Assembly: GCA_964293155.1 (NCBI GenBank)
Contig: CAXYYA010000028.1
Location: 1 to 48,569 of the forward strand
From: an uncultured Bacteroidales bacterium
GTDB lineage: Bacteria > Bacteroidota > Bacteroidia > Bacteroidales > Dysgonomonadaceae
Length of the DNA: 48,569 nucleotides
Direction of reading: 5' to 3'
Part shown: positions 4,335-46,523 of the stretch, piece by piece
Numbering within the stretch: the stretch's first letter is position 1
Layout of the letters: every line of letters begins with the position of its first letter
Position numbers and translations under genes: made by a program
Notes under the pieces: model-generated
What the model was told of the DNA's origin: nothing
What the model saw: only the letters and a program-made list of their open reading frames with translations
The model's database searches: none

Positions 4335-5906
4335 ATGAAAAGAAAGTTTATATATATAATTAATATAGCAATTGCAGCACTGCTTTTTTCATGTACGAAT
4401 CTTAACGAAGATGTATATGATAAAATACCCGCAGACGAATTCGGAAACACTCAGGCTCAGATAAACTCCATTATTGCACCTATTTACAGGACACTGACAG
4501 GTCTGTGGCCCGGTGATGGTTTTGTTATTGCGGAAGAAGTTGGAGATATGGCCATTACACCGACAAGAACCGGTGGTGACTGGTGGGACGGCGGTATTCA
4601 CATGGAACTCGGACGTCACGTTTGGCAACCCCGAAACGGCGCGATTAACGGTTTGTGGAATACGGCAAGTAACGGCACGTCAACCTGTAATAAAATTATG
4701 GCCATTATTGAGGCAAACAAGTCGCTCGATGAAACTCAAAAACAGGCTGTGTATGCCGAGATCAGGGGCGTAAGGGCATTTTGGTATTATATTTTTCTGG
4801 ATTACTTTGGAAATGTACCTTTAGTAACGAGTTTCAATGATCAGGAGTTGCCTGCAACCAAGACCAGAAAAGAAGTATATGATTTTGTTGTAAGTGAGTT
4901 GAACGCGATAAAAGACCTGCTTCCCGCCGATGTTTCAGCCAAAACATACGGAAAGTTTACCAAAGGAGCCGCATATTTTCTGTTGGCGAAAATGTACCTC
5001 AATGCCGAGATATTTACCGGAACATTAACAGCTAACTCCTTTACAAAAGGAGCAGCCGAATGGCAAAAAACCATTGATGCCTGCGATGCGGTTTTGGACT
5101 TGCCTTATATCCTTGAACCAACATGGACACTGAATTTTGCCGTGAATAACGAAGCATCGAAAGAGATAATCTTCCCGTGTGTATTCACAAAGAAAGAATG
5201 GGGTAATTACATCCTTCACCGCACGTTGCATTACAAAGATCCCATCGCGTTGGGCATAAGTATCAGTCCTTGGAACGGTATTAGTGCAGTGCCGGATTAT
5301 GTAAACAGTTTCGATAACGCTGATAAGCGAAAAGCATGGTCGTTCCTTACCGGACCTATGATTGATCCGGCTACGGGTACCGTTTTATATACGCAGCACG
5401 GCAGGCCGTTGATTCACACCGTGGATATTCCCATGATCGCCGGAACAACGAGTAAATATGATGGTGTTTGGGGAGAAGTGGAACAAGAAGTCGGTGCAAG
5501 ATGTTTCAAATGGGCTATCGAACCCGGTATGTCGGCAACGTCTGAAAACGATTTTGCATTTTTCCGTTTAGCAGATGTTTATCTGATGAAAGCGGAAGCA
5601 TTGGCCAGACTGGGAAGAACAGCCGAAGCTTTGCCATTGGTTAACGCGGTAAGAACGCGTGCTTTTGATGATAAAACAAAATTATTGACTGCCGTAACGC
5701 TGAATGATATTTATAAAGAACGTCGTTTTGAGTTGGCGTGGGAGTGCTATACGCGTCAGGATATGATCCGTTTTGGAACGTTCACCGCTCCGCATTTTTT
5801 GAAACCGGAAGTAACGCCAATTTATCGCATCTTGTTACCGATACCTGTTCAGGCATTGGAGGCGAATAATAAACTGACACAGAATCCGGGATATCCTGGT
5901 TTATGA
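4335..5906 (+). CDS. SusD/RagB-family nutrient-binding outer-membrane lipoprotein
   Basis: 523 aa with a lipoprotein signal (MKRKFIYIINIAIAALLFSCTN). It is TPR-like helical and lies 19 bp downstream of the SusC-like gene, the canonical SusC/SusD pairing. Confidence 0.9.
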   Translation: MKRKFIYIINIAIAALLFSCTNLNEDVYDKIPADEFGNTQAQINSIIAPIYRTLTGLWPGDGFVIAEEVGDMAITPTRTGGDWWDGGIHMELGRHVWQPRNGAINGLWNTASNGTSTCNKIMAIIEANKSLDETQKQAVYAEIRGVRAFWYYIFLDYFGNVPLVTSFNDQELPATKTRKEVYDFVVSELNAIKDLLPADVSAKTYGKFTKGAAYFLLAKMYLNAEIFTGTLTANSFTKGAAEWQKTIDACDAVLDLPYILEPTWTLNFAVNNEASKEIIFPCVFTKKEWGNYILHRTLHYKDPIALGISISPWNGISAVPDYVNSFDNADKRKAWSFLTGPMIDPATGTVLYTQHGRPLIHTVDIPMIAGTTSKYDGVWGEVEQEVGARCFKWAIEPGMSATSENDFAFFRLADVYLMKAEALARLGRTAEALPLVNAVRTRAFDDKTKLLTAVTLNDIYKERRFELAWECYTRQDMIRFGTFTAPHFLKPEVTPIYRILLPIPVQALEANNKLTQNPGYPGL

Positions 5907-9310: not shown

Positions 9311-9490
9311 CGGGAACATCATTTTAAAATTAACGTGAGTTCAATACAAGAAAAGGCTCTTAATTGATTTATAATAAGGTAATAAGGTCTTTGTTCTATT
9401 TTAATTTAACTCTACTAAGGTTGCTTTTAAAAAATAAGGTTTCCAATACGCTTTGAACCCTGCCTACCGCAGGCAAGCTTATTTACAAAT

Positions 9491-9839
9491 ATGATTATCC
9501 GCATAATGTCCTACATCAATTGCCACGTCCCTTTACAGGCTGTGTAAAAAACATCGCAACAGTATCAATTTGTCATTCCGACGATAGGAGGAATCTTATT
9601 TGTCATAAATTATAGACTCTTCACTCCGCAAAGCTGCGTTCAGAGTGACAAAAAGACACCTAATTTTCATTTTTACACAGCCTCTTTAGGGCGTGGTTTT
9701 TGAGATACAGAGCAGATAGGCTTTAGCCGAAATTTATACTATTATTGGGCTGAAGCCCGTAATTCTTAGACATTATTATCCCACGACTTAAAAATCGTGG
9801 CAATAGATAAAGCCGTTAGGACACTTTGCGGATAATCAT
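9491..9839. mobile_element. MITE-like element, family A (TIR ATGATTATCCGCAnARTGTCCTA...ATTGCCACG), copy 1, carrying a nested family-B insertion
   Basis: Terminal inverted repeats atgattatccgcataatgtcctacatcaattgccacg and cgtggcaatagataaagccgttaggacactttgcggataatcat. The internal gggctttagccgaaatttat...gggctgaagccc core is shared with the copies at 17755-17960 and 46226-46420 (the latter in reverse orientation). No ORF. Confidence 0.6.
9536..9684. mobile_element. MITE-like element, family B (~149 bp, TIR AGGCTGTGTAAAAA), copy 1, inserted inside family-A copy 1 with a TTTA target-site duplication
   Basis: caggctgtgtaaaaa...tttttacacagcctc, with an internal hairpin cactccgcaaagctgcgttcagagtg. 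It is flanked by direct TTTA/TTTA. The uninterrupted target, ccctaaaggg, is seen in the family-A copy at 46226-46420. Confidence 0.6.
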
Positions 9840-9984
9840 TTTTACGAATAATATAACCTTAATAGGAATCAACGCAAGCAAAGTTTCAGCCTTATTAGCT
9901 TATTTACTGATTCTTATGAAATGAGTTGTGTCAAACTCACGTTAATTATTTCTTTCGCATTTTACACGGATTAGAACCGATAAT

Positions 9985-17703: not shown

Positions 17704-17754
17704 AGGGAAAAGGTCTGTACAACATTTGTTATAAAATTATTTTTATGATTATCC

Positions 17755-17960
17755 GCAAAGTGTCCTAATATCAATTGCCACGGCTTTCAAGCCGTGGAAG
17801 GTATGAATTTAATTAAATTGGCTTTAGCCGAAATTTATGTAAACTTCCCGATTGCGGAATAAGTTGGGCTAAAGCCCATCTCATAGATACATCTAATTAT
17901 CCACGCCATAAATGGCGTGGCAATTGACACGGTTAATTAGGAAGGTTTGCGGATAATCAT
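17755..17960. mobile_element. MITE-like element, family A, copy 2 (206 bp, intact TIRs, no family-B insert)
   Basis: atgattatccgcaaagtgtcctaatatcaattgccacg ... cgtggcaattgacacggttaattaggaaggtttgcggataatcat, with the internal ggctttagccgaaatttat...gggctaaagccc core. Confidence 0.6.
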
Positions 17961-22987: not shown

Positions 22988-23142
22988 CGTAATTTATCCT
23001 ATATTTTTATTGGGCTACAAAGATAGTGAAAATGCTTTATTTGGCAAAGACGTAAAGTTTATCCGCAATGTTTCGAGGCTGAGAATTTTCAGTAGTCATG
23101 GCTAAAGCCGGTGTTCACGTTTGCTGGGTTCTCCGCTTTAAA

Positions 23143-23292
23143 CAGGCTGTGTAAGAAACATCGCAACAGTATCATTTTGTCATTCCGACGATAGGAGGAA
23201 TCTTTATTTGTCATAAATTATAAACTCTTCACTCCGCAAAGCTGCGTTCAGAGTGACAAAAAGACACCTAATTTTCATTTTTACACAGCCTC
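23143..23292. mobile_element. MITE-like element, family B, copy 2 (TAAA target-site duplication)
   Basis: ~95% identical to 9536-9684 and flanked by direct TAAA/TAAA. A solo family-A right TIR remnant (ttgcggataatca) lies at 23317-23329. Confidence 0.6.
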
Positions 23293-23650
23293 TAAAAGCA
23301 GGGTTATTAAGACGTATTGCGGATAATCAAAAAAATGACTATTTTTGTGAACGGGAAAAACATTTGTAAATGCCCATTAATTTGGTTGATTATTAAATCG
23401 CATAAATGAAGATGTTGGCAACGATTTGTAAATGTAAACTACAAAAATTTGGTAAATGGACAAGATTTGGTTAATAACAATAGCAACTGCAATTTTTTTG
23501 ATCATAAATTTTCTTTTTTATAAAACGCTCAACGTGTATTACAAAGAGGAATTTGGCAAAAAGACGTGAAAATTAGGAGGAGGGAGAATATACTTTTGGC
23601 AGGCATCAATAATTGTCAGCACAATAGGTGCGTTGATAGCAATTTATTTT

Positions 23651-23850
23651 TTAAAATAGTAAACGTTCATCACACCCTTCCCGCTTACGCGGATTTCTCG
23701 TCATAACGAGCGCACAGGTTCGAGCGGTAATCGGTGTGTGCCGCAGGCAAGAGTTTACTTCGTAACACACGCTTTGCAAAAGCGCGCGAGCACAAGCGGG
23801 ACACGAAGTTTGTAACTTCGTGAACGAAGGCACAGCCATCGTCTCCCAAT
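23651..23850. repeat. GC-rich cluster of five short hairpins (BIME-like), related to 45780-46110
   Basis: ccgc-ttac-gcgg, ctcgt-cata-acgag, cgcttt-gca-aaagcg and cacgaagtt-tgt-aacttcgtg. It shares motifs (ttgtaacttc, tgccgca, ttcgtaac) with the 45780-46110 array. The local GC is well above the genome background. Confidence 0.35.
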
Positions 23851-23892
23851 AAAAAAATCCGCCAAACGCTTCATCGCTTGGCGGATTTTTTA
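23851..23892. terminator. Strong bidirectional terminator at the end of the minus-strand gene array
   Basis: aaaaaaa-atccgccaa-acgcttcatcgc-ttggcggat-tttttta, a 9-bp perfect stem. Confidence 0.7.
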
Positions 23893-23912
23893 TACAGTTG
23901 ATCTTTAAATTT

Positions 23913-43844: not shown

Positions 43845-44831
43845 TTACAATTTCGATAAAACCTCTTCTGATAATTTAAGGGAAGGCTTTGACTTTTTTG
43901 CCGACACCGCAAGCACTTCGCACGCGAGGTGTTCTCCCGGCCTCATTTTCCGGAGATAAAGCCTCACGGTATCTATTTTTTTGCCATAGATACTTTCGGT
44001 TATCTCCAGCGAACACCGGTACTTGTCTTGCAGCAGGTAAGCTTTGCCGTTGTATTCATCGGCAATGACGGTTATATCTACAACCGTGTTTACGAGGGCG
44101 GCAAGTTGCTCCCGCTCTTCCTGCGACAGATCGGGTTCGGCTTCCTCACGTGGTTTGCGCCTGTTGAAACATCTTGGCGAGACATATTGCGTGCTGTCCG
44201 TGGTATTACGAATACCGTCAACGGCAACGGGAACGACTTCCGCGGCAGTTTCTCGAAATTCAAGGGTCTGTTTCTTTTCTGAAAACGCCAGAAAACGCAC
44301 TTGCCCGGCTTTCATGTTGGCAATGGTAGCTTTTCCTTTCAGGTTTTCCGCCGGAATAAAACCGTGCACTGATCCGCATTTCCATCCGAAATGAAGCCCC
44401 AGCTCTACGTGCACGCCTTTAGATGATGTTTGCAGGATGATCCCCTTGTATATGCTGCCCGGTTTCAGGTCGGGCACACAGGCTCTGTTCACCACTGCGT
44501 CCACAAGAACGAAATTCCGTTGCGGAAAGGCTTCATATACCGAGCCGAGGAAAGAGTGCATCACCAGATAGGGCGCAGCGTTGTGCCACCACTCCATATT
44601 GGGGTACGACCATGCCATGTGGCCATACGATACGAAACCGGAAATTTTTTCAACGCGTATGTTGAATCCTTTTTTGTTAAACGACCTTATCTCGAAAGGG
44701 AAAATTTCACCCGATGCTTCAGCCACGAGCATCCGGTTAAACTTGTCTTCTTCGGGCTCGTCTTTCTGTTTCCAGAAATCGTTGCGCTCTGACGGGCGAA
44801 ACCATCGCGCCAATATATCAATTATTTTCAT
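43845..44831 (-). CDS. Hypothetical protein
   Basis: 328-aa ORF with an ATG start and no recognisable motif. It lies in the same orientation as the two downstream genes. Confidence 0.45.
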   Translation of the reverse strand: MKIIDILARWFRPSERNDFWKQKDEPEEDKFNRMLVAEASGEIFPFEIRSFNKKGFNIRVEKISGFVSYGHMAWSYPNMEWWHNAAPYLVMHSFLGSVYEAFPQRNFVLVDAVVNRACVPDLKPGSIYKGIILQTSSKGVHVELGLHFGWKCGSVHGFIPAENLKGKATIANMKAGQVRFLAFSEKKQTLEFRETAAEVVPVAVDGIRNTTDSTQYVSPRCFNRRKPREEAEPDLSQEEREQLAALVNTVVDITVIADEYNGKAYLLQDKYRCSLEITESIYGKKIDTVRLYLRKMRPGEHLACEVLAVSAKKSKPSLKLSEEVLSKL

Positions 44832-44952: not shown

Positions 44953-45702
44953 TTAAGCGCCCGGCGGCAACGGAATATCGGGTTCGCTGCTTCCCTTACC
45001 GTCTTTTGCTTTGCGTATGGCCAGCATGTTTTTGTAATAGCTGATCAATTCATTTATCTTCCCAATGATGTTTTGGTACACTTCCGCATCGCCCACCAGC
45101 GAAAGGCCGTTTATGGCGGTTACAATTTTTTTGTAAGCTTCATCAACTGCTCCGCGGGTTTTGGAAACGTTGCCGCTACCGCGGGAGGCCTGCTCGTCGT
45201 TGCGCGAACCGAATCGGGTGATGAAATCGTCGTTGGCTTCTTTTAATTTGGTAACCAGCGTTGTTTGTTCGGTAACGGCAAGGTCACCGGCATAATTGGT
45301 TATAAGTTGATCTACGAGGCTGGTAAGGGCTTTACTTTCCTCCGGATAGGGGTCGCGGCTCACGTATCCCACCTGATCTACGATGCGCCGGATGTTATCG
45401 GCGGCGGCGCGCACATCGGGGTCAAACCAATTGATCTTGGCATTAAGATCGTTAATGAAAGCGCTGTAAATCTCGTCGCGATACTCATCGGCGGCAGCGA
45501 TGCCTGAGGTCAGGCGGCTGCCCGATTCCACGTTAATGGTGTTGATTTCGGTTTGTAGCGCTTTCACATAGGCAGGGTAGATTTTGATAATACCCAGTTT
45601 TTCGGCAGTTTCTTCCTCTATATATTTTTTCACCAAGTCGTGAAATTGTGCATGTTCTTTGTCACGGTAGCGTGAGAGGTCAAATCGTTGAATCTGTTCC
45701 AT
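44953..45702 (-). CDS. Hypothetical helical protein
   Basis: 249-aa ORF with an ATG start, predicted all-alpha. No catalytic motif recognised. Confidence 0.45.
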   Translation of the reverse strand: MEQIQRFDLSRYRDKEHAQFHDLVKKYIEEETAEKLGIIKIYPAYVKALQTEINTINVESGSRLTSGIAAADEYRDEIYSAFINDLNAKINWFDPDVRAAADNIRRIVDQVGYVSRDPYPEESKALTSLVDQLITNYAGDLAVTEQTTLVTKLKEANDDFITRFGSRNDEQASRGSGNVSKTRGAVDEAYKKIVTAINGLSLVGDAEVYQNIIGKINELISYYKNMLAIRKAKDGKGSSEPDIPLPPGA

Positions 45703-45779
45703 TGTATTCCAATTTAGTTAAAAATTTATTCAGCGGCAGCATTGCCGGTAACAATAAAGAGCATCAGCTCTTTCTTTAG

Positions 45780-46110
45780 TGCGATGCTGCGGGATGCTTT
45801 CGGGTTGCCCCGAAGAGGCGCCGCATGACCGCAGACTGCATTGTAACTTCCCGATATCGTGCCGCAATCGTGCGGCTGTCTTTCGTACATTCCCGATGGT
45901 TCCCCGCACGCGTGCGGGAACATTTCTGGGCGCCCCCAAAGTGGGCCGCCCGCCTGCGGGAAGGGTTCGTTAATTCCCCCAAACATGCTGCAAAGCTGTG
46001 GCTTAATTTCGGGGTTTTACGGATGCGGCCGCACTGTTTTTCTCCTTTCTTCTGCCGCATGCCCTACGTTAATCCGCGTTTGCAGCCCGGTTCCGGGCAT
46101 CTAAAGATCG
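45780..46110. repeat. GC-rich degenerate tandem array (~7 units of ~42 bp), each unit carrying a short cccgc-N-gcggg-type hairpin (BIME-like)
   Basis: Units begin ttccc[ga]...; the hairpins are gccgca-atc-gtgcggc, cccgcac-gc-gtgcggg, cccgc-ctg-cggg and cccgg-ttc-cggg. Local GC is >55% against a ~45% background. No long ORF is credible here. Confidence 0.4.
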
Positions 46111-46225
46111 CTTATGCGCAAATATATATGTTAAAAACGTCATTTGCAAGTAAATTAACAGATAATATTTTATGTTTTAGAGCAGGTTTTTTGGGAAAAA
46201 TGATAAGGTTAACCATCAATTTTTC

Positions 46226-46420
46226 ACATTATCCGCGAAGTGTTCTAACGGCTTTATCCATTGCCACGACTTTTAAGTCGTGGGATAATGATGTCTAAGA
46301 ATTACGGGCTTTAGCCCAATAATAGTATAAATTTCGGCTAAAGCCTATCTGCTCTGTATCTCAAAAACCACGCCCTAAAGGGACGTGGCAATTGATGTAG
46401 GACATTATACGGATAATCAT
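46226..46420. mobile_element. MITE-like element, family A, copy 3 (reverse orientation, left TIR slightly degenerate)
   Basis: ...cattatccgcgaagtgttctaacggctttatccattgccacg ... cgtggcaattgatgtaggacattatacggataatcat. The core is the reverse complement of 9690-9760, and it carries the uninterrupted ccctaaaggg site. Confidence 0.55.
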
Positions 46421-46523
46421 ATTAAATTATTATTCATGTCATTTCCTCTTTATGCCCAATTTTGGGTGGGGACGTGACAAGATGAAACTGTTCTTGCTCT
46501 TTTGATACTGCCTCTTTTATTGT

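What the first reader, a model, noticed from the sequence alone, without database searches (positions are those of the whole stretch)
45780..46110. GC-rich array of ~42-bp degenerate units, each with a short GC hairpin; related to a second array at 23651-23850
Seven consecutive units carry cccgc-loop-gcggg style stems. They are spaced regularly in a region ~10 GC points above background and flanked by a family-A MITE. The 23651-23850 block shares sequence motifs with it and is also a string of 4-5 short hairpins near a MITE remnant. The units are not identical, so this is not a CRISPR array. They resemble enterobacterial BIME/REP clusters, or alternatively a structured non-coding RNA family.
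Basis: seen in the sequence. Interest (0 to 1): 0.5.

Follow-up and report, generated by a model that had tools for sequence, protein, structure and literature searches.

The report
Gene-linked 42-nt hairpin repeat array
The GC-rich block is a worn copy of an apparently undescribed 41-43-base, hairpin-containing tandem repeat that sits just upstream of one uncharacterised gene family (DUF6261) across many Bacteroidia, probably as a structured mRNA leader; the second block is unrelated.

Summary
The 42-nt periodicity at 45780-46110 is real: lag-42 identity is 0.42, above all 1000 shuffles. The array is degenerate. It has four head-to-tail units on the minus strand (45964-45798), plus one or two eroded units on either side.

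It lies between a Bacteroidetes-type promoter box (46149-46119) and a DUF6261 gene (45702-44953, minus strand). This arrangement is not local. In 55 of 56 DUF6261 loci from other genomes and metagenomes, the upstream 800 nt repeats with a period of 41-43 nt, against 1 of 51 control regions.

Unit sequences differ between lineages. The period, position and hairpin content persist. In the window's clade, 101 distinct units share hairpin A (CCGCA-GTTT-TGCGR). Hairpin B is a 7-bp stem whose sequence turns over with compensatory changes at all seven pairs. Periods of 41 and 43 exclude coding.

Rfam, PHROGs, PADLOC, NCBIfam and the literature searches returned nothing. The block at 23651-23850 shows no significant similarity, no periodicity and no model match.

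Best reading (about 0.5): a transcribed 5' leader made of tandem hairpin modules, acting as RNA. RNA versus DNA action is unresolved, because G·U and A·C mismatches are equally frequent. The architecture resembles type III toxin-antitoxin loci but fails two of their criteria. It is not REP/BIME and not CRISPR.

The parts
46119..46149 (-). Promoter-like site: TTGCAA-17 nt-TATATT, overlapping the Bacteroidetes -7 box TATATTTG (46126-46119). The inferred transcription start is near 46112.
Evidence: The same box lies within 300 nt upstream of the array in 30 of 50 related loci. Only 2 hits fall between array and ATG. Function is inferred.
46016..46112 (-). Non-periodic, GC-rich leader segment ahead of the array. 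It has hairpins (CCCGGaaCCGGG, TGCGGCCGCA) and the motif GAAAGGAGAAAAA, which Limibacterium shares.
   Evidence: The sequence is. No 42-nt register is seen, and the model has no hit on the minus strand here. It is identical in the near-identical strain L007.
45965..46015 (-). Degenerate first unit(s) of the array. They are in phase with the units that follow but are too eroded to match the model.
   Evidence: The row layout shows the phase. The model has no hit here. Five of the 17 differences from strain L007 fall here.
45923..45964 (-). Unit 1: CCTTC-CCGCAggcgGGCGG-...-TTTGGGggcgCCCAGAAA.
   Evidence: Covariance model R1 scores 16.1 bits, E=0.11. The window units were among the 101 seed sequences.
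45881..45922 (-). Unit 2: TGTTC-CCGCAcgcgTGCGG-...; the best-preserved unit.
   Evidence: R1 scores 23.4 bits, E=0.003. The 8+8 palindrome is at 45903-45918.
45839..45880 (-). Unit 3: GACAG-CCGCAcgatTGCGG-...; hairpin B is lost.
   Evidence: R1 scores 21.8 bits, E=0.006.
45798..45838 (-). Unit 4: weak hairpin A (CTGCggtcatGCGG) and a strong hairpin B, TTCGGGgcaaCCCGAA.
   Evidence: R1 scores 14.4 bits, E=0.23. The hairpin appears in the folds.
45756..45797 (-). Terminal partial unit (TCCCGCAgcatCGCA), followed by the hairpin AAAGAGCtgatGCTCTTT (45753-45776).
   Evidence: R1 scores 7.1 bits, E=8.4. The inverted repeat is I18. It does not meet the terminator criteria.
45703..45755 (-). AT-rich spacer between the array and the start codon.
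   Evidence: The sequence is. Related loci have AT-rich spacers of 20-400 nt.
44953..45702 (-). DUF6261 family gene (249 aa). It is the only gene conserved next to the array.
   Evidence: Pfam PF19775, E=2.4e-30. It is the only ORF cluster shared by 20 of 20 loci. The AlphaFold2 model is all-helical, with pLDDT 87.

Best explanation
The block is the window's eroded copy of a conserved, gene-linked tandem array.

What it is:
- The units are 41-43 nt long.
- Each unit carries a short GC hairpin. In this clade it is CCGCA-N4-TGCGG, with consensus TGTTC-CCGCAGTTTTGCGR-CAAGR.
- Most units also carry a second hairpin: a 7-bp stem with a 4-nt loop and free sequence.
- Units are repeated 2-8 times head-to-tail on the coding strand, 20-400 nt upstream of a DUF6261 gene.

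How it most likely works:
- It is transcribed from a promoter about 100-230 nt upstream of the array. In the window this promoter is at 46149-46119 and would give a leader of about 410 nt.
- It then acts as RNA, as a row of hairpin modules in the 5' leader.
- The modules would offer several equivalent binding sites for a partner. That partner would set the translation or stability of the DUF6261 mRNA, or would bind the DUF6261 product itself.

Shown: the array, its period, its exclusive linkage to DUF6261, covariation in hairpin B, the position of the promoter box, rapid turnover of units, and variation in copy number.

Inferred: transcription through the array, action at the RNA level, and the identity of the partner.
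For: Periodicity in the window is significant.

Linkage to DUF6261:
- The best repeat lag is 41-43 in 55 of 56 upstream regions of DUF6261 genes. These come from Limibacterium, Paludibacter, Prolixibacter, Maribellus, Gaoshiqia, Sunxiuqinia, Tenuifilaceae, Prevotellaceae, Dysgonomonadaceae, Tannerella and metagenomes.
- The same lag is best in only 1 of 51 control regions.
- DUF6261 is the only conserved neighbouring gene.
- All 215 model hits at E<0.01 in about 260 kb lie upstream of DUF6261. Direct units are on the gene's strand.

Hairpin structure:
- On 101 distinct units, 73.3% of cells are paired, against 62.4% when shuffled (0 of 500 shuffles as high).
- The covariation score is 0.322, against 0.156 shuffled (0 of 500) and 0.07-0.15 for slid partners.
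- All seven pairs of hairpin B change on both sides. Pair 29-38, for example, is AU 32, GC 17, CG 14, UA 6.
- RNAalifold recovers the core of hairpin B without being given the structure.
- Stems of 5-7 bp are too short to extrude as cruciforms (my own knowledge). That favours a single-stranded carrier.

Coding is excluded: periods of 41 and 43 occur.

Transcription through the array:
- The TAnnTTTG box lies within 300 nt upstream of the array in 30 of 50 loci (33 hits in 14.4 kb). Between array and ATG there are 2 hits in 5.8 kb.
- In several loci the array ends 19-50 nt before the ATG, which leaves no room for a promoter.

Units differ between DUF6261 lineages while the geometry is kept. A co-evolving local partner would explain this.
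Against: - No strand signature of RNA selection was found. G·U versus A·C counts at paired positions are 40 versus 38 across 18 arrays. They are 55 versus 64 in the clade alignment.
- The sense strand folds better than the antisense in only 7 of 18 arrays.
- The RNAalifold consensus energy is weak (-1.08 kcal/mol) and omits hairpin A.
- Many arrays start with 1-3 units in inverted orientation. That is easier to explain for DNA sites.
- The period equals four turns of B-DNA.
- DUF6261 proteins are acidic to neutral, with median pI 6.0 and 5.1 in the window. They are all-helical with no recognisable nucleic-acid-binding fold.
- No expression data were available.
- In the window only 2-3 units keep both hairpins.
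Confidence: 0.5

Rival explanations
1. The array acts as DNA. It is a row of short inverted-repeat protein-binding sites, phased every four helical turns. It would work as an operator array, a nucleoprotein scaffold or a centromere-like site in front of DUF6261, comparable in layout to F-plasmid sopC (12 x 43 bp, each with an inverted repeat).
For: - The period is held at 41-43 bp (about 4 x 10.5) while the sequence turns over.
- G·T and A·C mismatches are equally frequent, as expected for symmetric duplex sites.
- Units in both orientations occur at the promoter-proximal edge.
- Hairpin A is conserved in sequence rather than by covariation.
- Copy number varies between strains.
Against: - Hairpin B changes its whole sequence between close lineages but stays self-complementary, while hairpin A stays constant. 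That is not expected of a binding site for a protein.
- The canonical promoter box lies upstream of the array, not within or after it.
- No ParA/ParB, HTH or other DNA-binding gene is conserved nearby.
- DUF6261 is acidic.
- The genomic contexts are chromosomal and varied.
Confidence: 0.2
2. The locus is a type III toxin-antitoxin-like (or other RNA-protein) module. The repeat transcript would be cut into units of about 42 nt, and each unit would bind and neutralise or assemble with one DUF6261 protein.
For: - The architecture matches the published criteria in part: a promoter, then tandem repeats, then a protein gene. Published repeat sizes are 31-62 nt with 1.9-5.6 copies, and gaps reach 340 bp (PMC3401426).
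- The fixed unit length with lineage-specific sequence resembles cognate toxin-antitoxin pairs.
- One MAG carries several loci: L018, L022 and L032.
- The genomic contexts vary and include a conjugative-transposon neighbourhood.
Against: - A terminator-like hairpin between array and gene occurs in only 8 of 50 loci, against 4.5 expected by chance. None is found in the window.
- DUF6261 is not ToxN-, CptN- or TenpN-like. It hits only PF19775 and has no PADLOC hit. It is all-helical and acidic.
- Arrays as eroded as the window's, about 50% identity between units, sit next to an intact gene.
- Type III loci do not contain inverted units.
Confidence: 0.15
3. The array is a neutral or selfish minisatellite. 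It persists and is homogenised by slippage and unequal recombination, and has no function of its own.
For: - Sequence turnover is rapid.
- Copy number is 2, 5, 7 and at least 7 among Limibacterium assemblies that encode the identical protein.
- Ten of the 17 differences between the window and a near-identical strain fall within the array.
- The window's own copy is eroded.
Against: The place, strand, period and hairpin content are kept across at least two orders of Bacteroidia and more than 60 loci, while the sequence is replaced. Compensatory change is seen in hairpin B. The array is absent everywhere else in the loci searched.
Confidence: 0.08
4. The block is a REP/BIME-type dispersed extragenic palindrome cluster.
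For: It contains short GC-rich imperfect palindromes in an intergenic region next to a MITE.
Against: - It is not dispersed. There is one locus in the window, and elsewhere it occurs only upstream of DUF6261.
- The units are head-to-tail with a fixed period, not alternating Y/Z palindromic units.
- The supposed second cluster at 23651-23850 is unrelated.
Confidence: 0.02

Closest known systems
Type III toxin-antitoxin loci (toxIN, cptIN, tenpIN)
   Same: A tandem array of short nucleotide repeats lies directly upstream of, and on the same strand as, one cognate protein gene, with a promoter ahead of the repeats. The repeat length is family-specific (31-62 nt). The repeat sequence is specific to the cognate protein (PMC3401426).
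   Different: - There is no consistent terminator between the repeats and the gene.
- The protein is an all-helical, acidic DUF6261, not a ToxN-fold endoribonuclease.
- There are more copies, up to 8.
- The units are built of simple hairpins.
- Inverted units occur at the 5' edge.
- Neither toxicity nor RNA processing has been tested.
F-plasmid sopC centromere (12 x 43-bp repeats, each with a short inverted repeat bound by SopB); recalled from my own knowledge
   Same: Direct repeats of about 42-43 bp, each carrying an inverted repeat, with variable copy number, next to the genes they serve.
   Different: No ParA/ParB-type genes are nearby. The contexts are chromosomal. One hairpin evolves by compensatory change rather than by conservation of a site sequence. 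The array lies between a promoter box and the gene.
REP/BIME elements of enterobacteria
   Same: GC-rich imperfect palindromes in extragenic, probably transcribed DNA.
   Different: REP/BIME elements are dispersed in hundreds of copies and alternate in orientation. This array is tied to one gene family, is head-to-tail, and has a fixed 41-43-nt period.
Multi-hairpin protein-sponge RNAs (CsrB/RsmZ type); recalled from my own knowledge
   Same: Many repeated hairpin modules in one transcript would offer equivalent binding sites.
   Different: Those are free-standing sRNAs with a conserved GGA loop motif that binds a conserved host protein. Here the repeats form the leader of one gene, and their sequence differs between lineages.
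CRISPR arrays
   Same: Regularly spaced short palindromic repeats.
   Different: There are no spacers, since the units abut. The copies are degenerate. No cas genes are present. The array is linked to DUF6261.

Membership tests
REP/BIME | Many dispersed extragenic copies per genome | tested here: not met
   The unit model hits only 45756-45964 in the 48.5-kb window. In about 260 kb of related loci it hits only upstream of DUF6261. The whole genome was not available.
REP/BIME | Palindromic units in alternating orientation within clusters | tested here: not met
   The units are head-to-tail direct repeats with a period of 41-43 nt. Only 1-3 units at the 5' edge of some arrays are inverted.
Type III toxin-antitoxin | Tandem array of nucleotide repeats upstream of the protein gene on the same strand | tested here: met
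   The criteria are taken from PMC3401426.
Type III toxin-antitoxin | Short palindromic terminator between the repeats and the toxin gene | tested here: not met
   A hairpin followed by a T tract occurs in 8 of 50 loci, against 4.5 expected from shuffles. The scan of the window finds none on the minus strand.
Type III toxin-antitoxin | Toxin of the ToxN/CptN/TenpN endoribonuclease families | tested here: not met
Type III toxin-antitoxin | Repeat RNA is processed to single units that inhibit the protein | not testable with these tools
   This needs northern blots or RNA-seq and toxicity assays.
CRISPR | Near-identical repeats separated by unique spacers of similar length | tested here: not met
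   The units abut without spacers, and the window's copies are about 50% identical.
Any Rfam 15 family | Score at or above the family's gathering threshold | tested here: not met
   There are no hits in the window or in 16 related loci. At E<=10 the region gives only two chance-level hits outside the array.
sopC-type partition site | Adjacent parA/parB (sopA/sopB) genes | tested here: not met
   The window's neighbours are DUF6261, a weak S1-domain protein and an SPFH protein. No gene other than DUF6261 is shared among the loci.
DUF6261 (PF19775), for the adjacent gene | Pfam score above the gathering threshold | tested here: met
   105.9 bits against a cut-off of 27, E=2.4e-30.

The most novel reading that the evidence does not exclude
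The array and DUF6261 form a previously unrecognised RNA-protein module of Bacteroidia. The leader would be cut into two-hairpin RNAs of about 42 nt. These would assemble stoichiometrically with the DUF6261 protein. That would make it a new type III-like toxin-antitoxin or defence family, or a new ribonucleoprotein, with a helical protein unrelated to ToxN. The unit length would be fixed by the geometry of the complex.
Probability: 0.18. Interest if true: 0.85.

Novelty: new variant of a known kind. Interest (0 to 1): 0.62.

Why it matters
DUF6261 is a family of unknown function in anaerobic Bacteroidia from sediments, digesters and guts. Here it gains an almost invariable partner: a tandem array whose period (41-43 nt) and hairpin content are kept while its sequence is replaced.

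Strict gene-repeat linkage of this kind is what first exposed type III toxin-antitoxin systems. It gives a concrete handle on the protein's function.

It would also add a structured element to Bacteroidia, a group in which few cis-acting RNA elements are known. The element is missing from Rfam.

Several cultured species carry clean arrays: Limibacterium fermenti, Prolixibacter, Sunxiuqinia, Maribellus and Gaoshiqia. The RNA-versus-DNA question can therefore be tested directly.

Tried and rejected
- **Rfam.** Nothing at gathering thresholds in the window or in 16 related loci. Nothing relevant at E<=10 on either block.
- **TRF on the window.** It misses the array because the units are too divergent.
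- **First genome scan with the single protein.** It found nothing. The scan with a six-sequence alignment worked. The 33-sequence alignment was too diverse for the metagenome scan.
- **Strand tests.** Sense versus antisense MFE and G·U versus A·C counts gave no signal in either direction.
- **Folding concatenated consensus units.** This gave only long-range artefacts typical of tandem palindromes.
- **PHROGs, PADLOC, NCBIfam.** No hits.
- **Literature searches.** Searches on DUF6261, PF19775, 42-nt repeats and tandem hairpins in Bacteroidetes found nothing relevant.
- **Profile search of 1.84 billion proteins.** It was swamped by the C-terminal repeat domain of long DUF6261 forms and says nothing about family size.
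- **Downstream S1-like gene.** It is conserved only in Limibacterium, so it is not part of the module.
- **Coding repeats (42 = 14 codons).** Rejected because periods of 41 and 43 occur.
- **A promoter inside each unit.** Considered and dropped, because TAnnTTTG occurs within only 2 of 50 arrays.
- **One Python script timed out**.

Full report
**1. What is in the window.**
- The stretch 45780-46110 has 58.6% G+C, against 44.0% for the window.
- Its self-similarity peaks at lag 42 (0.42) and lag 84 (0.385). No lag reached more than 0.38 in any of 1000 shuffles.
- The repeat finder reports in-phase motif families spaced 41-42 nt apart, and short perfect palindromes such as CCCGCACG/CGTGCGGG.
- Tandem Repeats Finder reports nothing, because neighbouring units share only about half their bases.
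- Laid out in rows of 42, the periodic part runs from about 45756 to 46015. The part 46016-46110 is GC-rich and has hairpins but is out of register.
- The flanking MITE is real: 46228-46423 is a 96-98% inverted copy of 9488-9535 plus 9684-9836.

**2. Strand and setting.**
- The array lies immediately upstream of a minus-strand ORF, 45702-44953. This is a DUF6261 protein (PF19775, E=2.4e-30).
- Upstream of the block, on the same strand, is a promoter-like site: TTGCAA-17-TATATT at 46149-46121. It contains the Bacteroidetes -7 box TATATTTG.
- If that promoter is used, the gene has a leader of about 410 nt, and the array is the core of that leader.

**3. The arrangement is conserved.**
- The closest named homologue is in Limibacterium fermenti, at 57% identity. 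There, five near-identical 41-nt units occupy the same place.
- Scans of genome and metagenome collections with a DUF6261 alignment gave 28 and 37 loci. Four more came from exact-protein look-ups.
- In 55 of 56 loci with at least 400 nt of upstream sequence, the best repeat lag between 20 and 70 is 41, 42 or 43. The median identity at that lag is 0.74.
- In control regions of the same loci the figure is 1 of 51, with a median of 0.40 (details).
- The carriers span Limibacterium, Paludibacter, Prolixibacter, Maribellus, Gaoshiqia, Sunxiuqinia, Tenuifilaceae, Prevotellaceae, Dysgonomonadaceae and Tannerella.
- Unit sequences are unrelated between distant lineages. Nearly every unit nevertheless contains one or two hairpins. 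Examples are CGCCcgcGGCG plus CTTGTATATagcATATACAAG, TTTCCCCgagtGGGGAAA plus TCGCAcggTGCGA, and GCGCAttgaTGCGC plus an AT-rich stem.
- Periods of 41 and 43 rule out a coding repeat.
- No other gene is conserved next to DUF6261. It is the only ORF cluster common to 20 of 20 loci, and the next best cluster covers 3. The S1-like gene downstream in the window recurs only in Limibacterium.

**4. Unit anatomy in the window's clade.**
- Loci related to the window share a 42-nt unit. These are the Paludibacter-type MAGs and most of the metagenome loci.
- The unit reads TGTTC, then CCGCA-GTTT-TGCGR (hairpin A), then CAAGR, then a 7-bp stem with a 4-nt loop (hairpin B).
- I aligned 101 distinct units, including four from the window (A3). 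I then counted pairs for this structure.
- 73.3% of cells are paired, against 62.4% in shuffles (0 of 500 as high).
- The covariation score is 0.322, against 0.156 for shuffles (0 of 500) and 0.07-0.15 for slid partners.
- All seven pairs of hairpin B change on both sides. Stems seen include TTCCGG/CCGGAA, ATTATT/AATAAT, TTTGGG/CCCAAA, TTCGGG/CCCGAA and ATCATC/GATGAA.
- Hairpin A is conserved mainly as sequence.
- RNAalifold, run without my structure, recovers the four inner pairs of hairpin B. All four show compensatory changes, but the consensus energy is weak at -1.08 kcal/mol.

**5. Model search.**
- A covariance model of the unit (R1) finds four abutting units in the window, on the minus strand: 45964-45923, 45922-45881, 45880-45839 and 45838-45798. 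It finds a weak fifth at 45797-45756, and nothing comparable elsewhere. These window units were part of the seed.
- In 147 kb and 113 kb of related loci, all 50 and 165 hits at E<0.01 lie upstream of DUF6261.
- Many arrays begin with 1-3 units in inverted orientation at the promoter-proximal edge.

**6. The second block.**
- 23651-23850 is not related to the array.
- The best local alignment score is 22. It was equalled by 9% of shuffles and by 27 of 234 control windows.
- It has no periodicity and no R1 hit.
- It folds well only when the adjacent bidirectional terminator is included: z=-5.15 with it and -1.99 without.

**7. RNA or DNA?**

For transcription through the array:
- The TAnnTTTG box is found within 300 nt upstream of the array in 30 of 50 loci (33 hits in 14.4 kb).
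- Only two hits fall in the 5.8 kb between arrays and start codons.
- In several loci the array ends 19-50 nt from the ATG.

For single-stranded structure:
- Hairpin B is replaced completely while it stays self-complementary and hairpin A stays constant. That is unlike a protein's duplex binding site.
- Stems of 5-7 bp are too short for cruciform extrusion (my own knowledge).

Against, or neutral:
- G·U and A·C mismatches are equally common: 40 versus 38 and 55 versus 64.
- The sense strand is the more stable in only 7 of 18 arrays.
- Inverted units exist.
- 42 bp equals four helical turns.

I therefore hold the RNA-leader reading at about 0.5 and the DNA-site reading at about 0.2.

**8. Comparison with type III toxin-antitoxin loci.**
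- The published criteria are a tandem repeat array, then a short palindromic terminator, then the toxin gene, preferably with a promoter ahead. Published repeats are 31-62 nt in 1.9-5.6 copies (PMC3401426).
- The repeat and promoter criteria are met.
- The terminator criterion is not: 8 of 50 loci have one, against 4.5 expected, and the window has none.
- The protein criterion is not met either. DUF6261 is all-helical and has only generic helical-bundle neighbours. It has no PADLOC, PHROG or NCBIfam match. It is acidic, with pI 5.1 and a family median of 6.0.
- The locus may work somewhat like such a system, but it is not a member of the known families.

**9. Dynamics.**
- Limibacterium assemblies that encode the identical protein carry 2, 5, 5, 5, 7 and at least 7 units. 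Their sequence downstream of the array is identical. Short-read assembly may have collapsed some arrays.
- The window and a 99%-identical strain (L007) differ at 17 positions in 3307 nt. Ten of these fall in the 260-nt array and none in the promoter, the leader segment ahead of the array or the spacer.
- All ten are transversions, so sequencing or assembly error cannot be excluded. However, read by eye from the sequences, several of them change one hairpin-B stem into another that still pairs.

**10. Verdict.**
- The element appears to be undescribed. There is no Rfam family, no paper mentions DUF6261 in this context, and there is no report of such repeats.
- The window's own copy is a decayed example. 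The interest lies in the family it reveals.

Noticed in passing
window 23591-23893 (+): The GC-rich 200-nt block at 23651-23850 is unrelated to the array. On the plus strand it lies between a TACTTTTG promoter-type box (23591-23598) and a strong bidirectional terminator (23851-23893). It may be an independent sRNA of about 290 nt. Fold z is -5.15 with the terminator and -1.99 without. Rfam has no match.
   Followed up: partly
window 45756-46015 vs L007:253-512: Ten of the 17 differences between the window and a near-identical strain fall inside the 260-nt array, nine of them within 45927-45994. All ten are transversions. The flanks are identical. This could be hypervariability, gene conversion or an assembly artefact.
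   Followed up: partly
window 9479-9851, 17739-17960, 23142-23336, 46228-46425: This is a MITE family with terminal inverted repeats like ATGATTATCCGCAAAGTGTCCTAAT. The copy at 9479-9851 holds a nested insert of about 150 nt (9535-9685). That insert recurs at 23142-23293 with 97-99% identity.
   Followed up: partly
L012:2666-2765, L020:296-564, L064, L065, L074, L040-L043 (upstream of DUF6261): Many arrays start with 1-3 units in inverted orientation. With the first direct unit they form long near-perfect palindromes. In L012 this is a stem of about 27 bp centred on hairpin B. In RNA this would be a long duplex.
   Followed up: partly
proteins P0006-P0061 (about 316 aa); search: Long DUF6261 forms carry a C-terminal domain of about 75 aa. 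The same domain recurs up to 66 times in giant proteins of up to 7646 aa. It dominated the profile search, and it hints at a cell-surface link.
   Followed up: no
L075:1-1054; L076:2523-3951; L077:2454-3894; L011/L014/L018/L022 upstream genes: The contexts of DUF6261 loci vary. One lies next to TraQ_transposon, Toprim and phage-lysozyme genes, which is a conjugative-transposon neighbourhood. Others are followed by choice-of-anchor-L or LRR_5 surface proteins. Others are preceded by a protein that appears to have a T9SS C-terminal sorting domain, judged by eye from its translated 3' end.
   Followed up: no
window ~46030-46045 (-) and L002:~5495-5510: The motif GAAAGGAGAAAAA is shared by the window and Limibacterium in the leader segment ahead of the array. 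In the window it opens a 94-aa ORF (46060-45776) that runs through the array. That ORF is probably spurious, because the Limibacterium reading frame stops before its array.
   Followed up: partly
20-30 nt upstream of the DUF6261 ATG in L011-L018, L022, L027, L029, L030, L035: A recurrent ATTATTAAT-like motif lies just before the start codon. It could be a translation-initiation region or an alternative promoter element.
   Followed up: no
window 36145-36473: 117-nt tandem repeats (about 1.9-3 copies, 72-83% identical) lie within what looks like a coding region.
   Followed up: no
window 43845-44831 (-): The 328-aa protein downstream of DUF6261 has a weak S1 RNA-binding domain hit (E=5.7e-5) and pI 8.8. 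It has a 33%-identical counterpart in the same position in Limibacterium, but not in other loci.
   Followed up: partly
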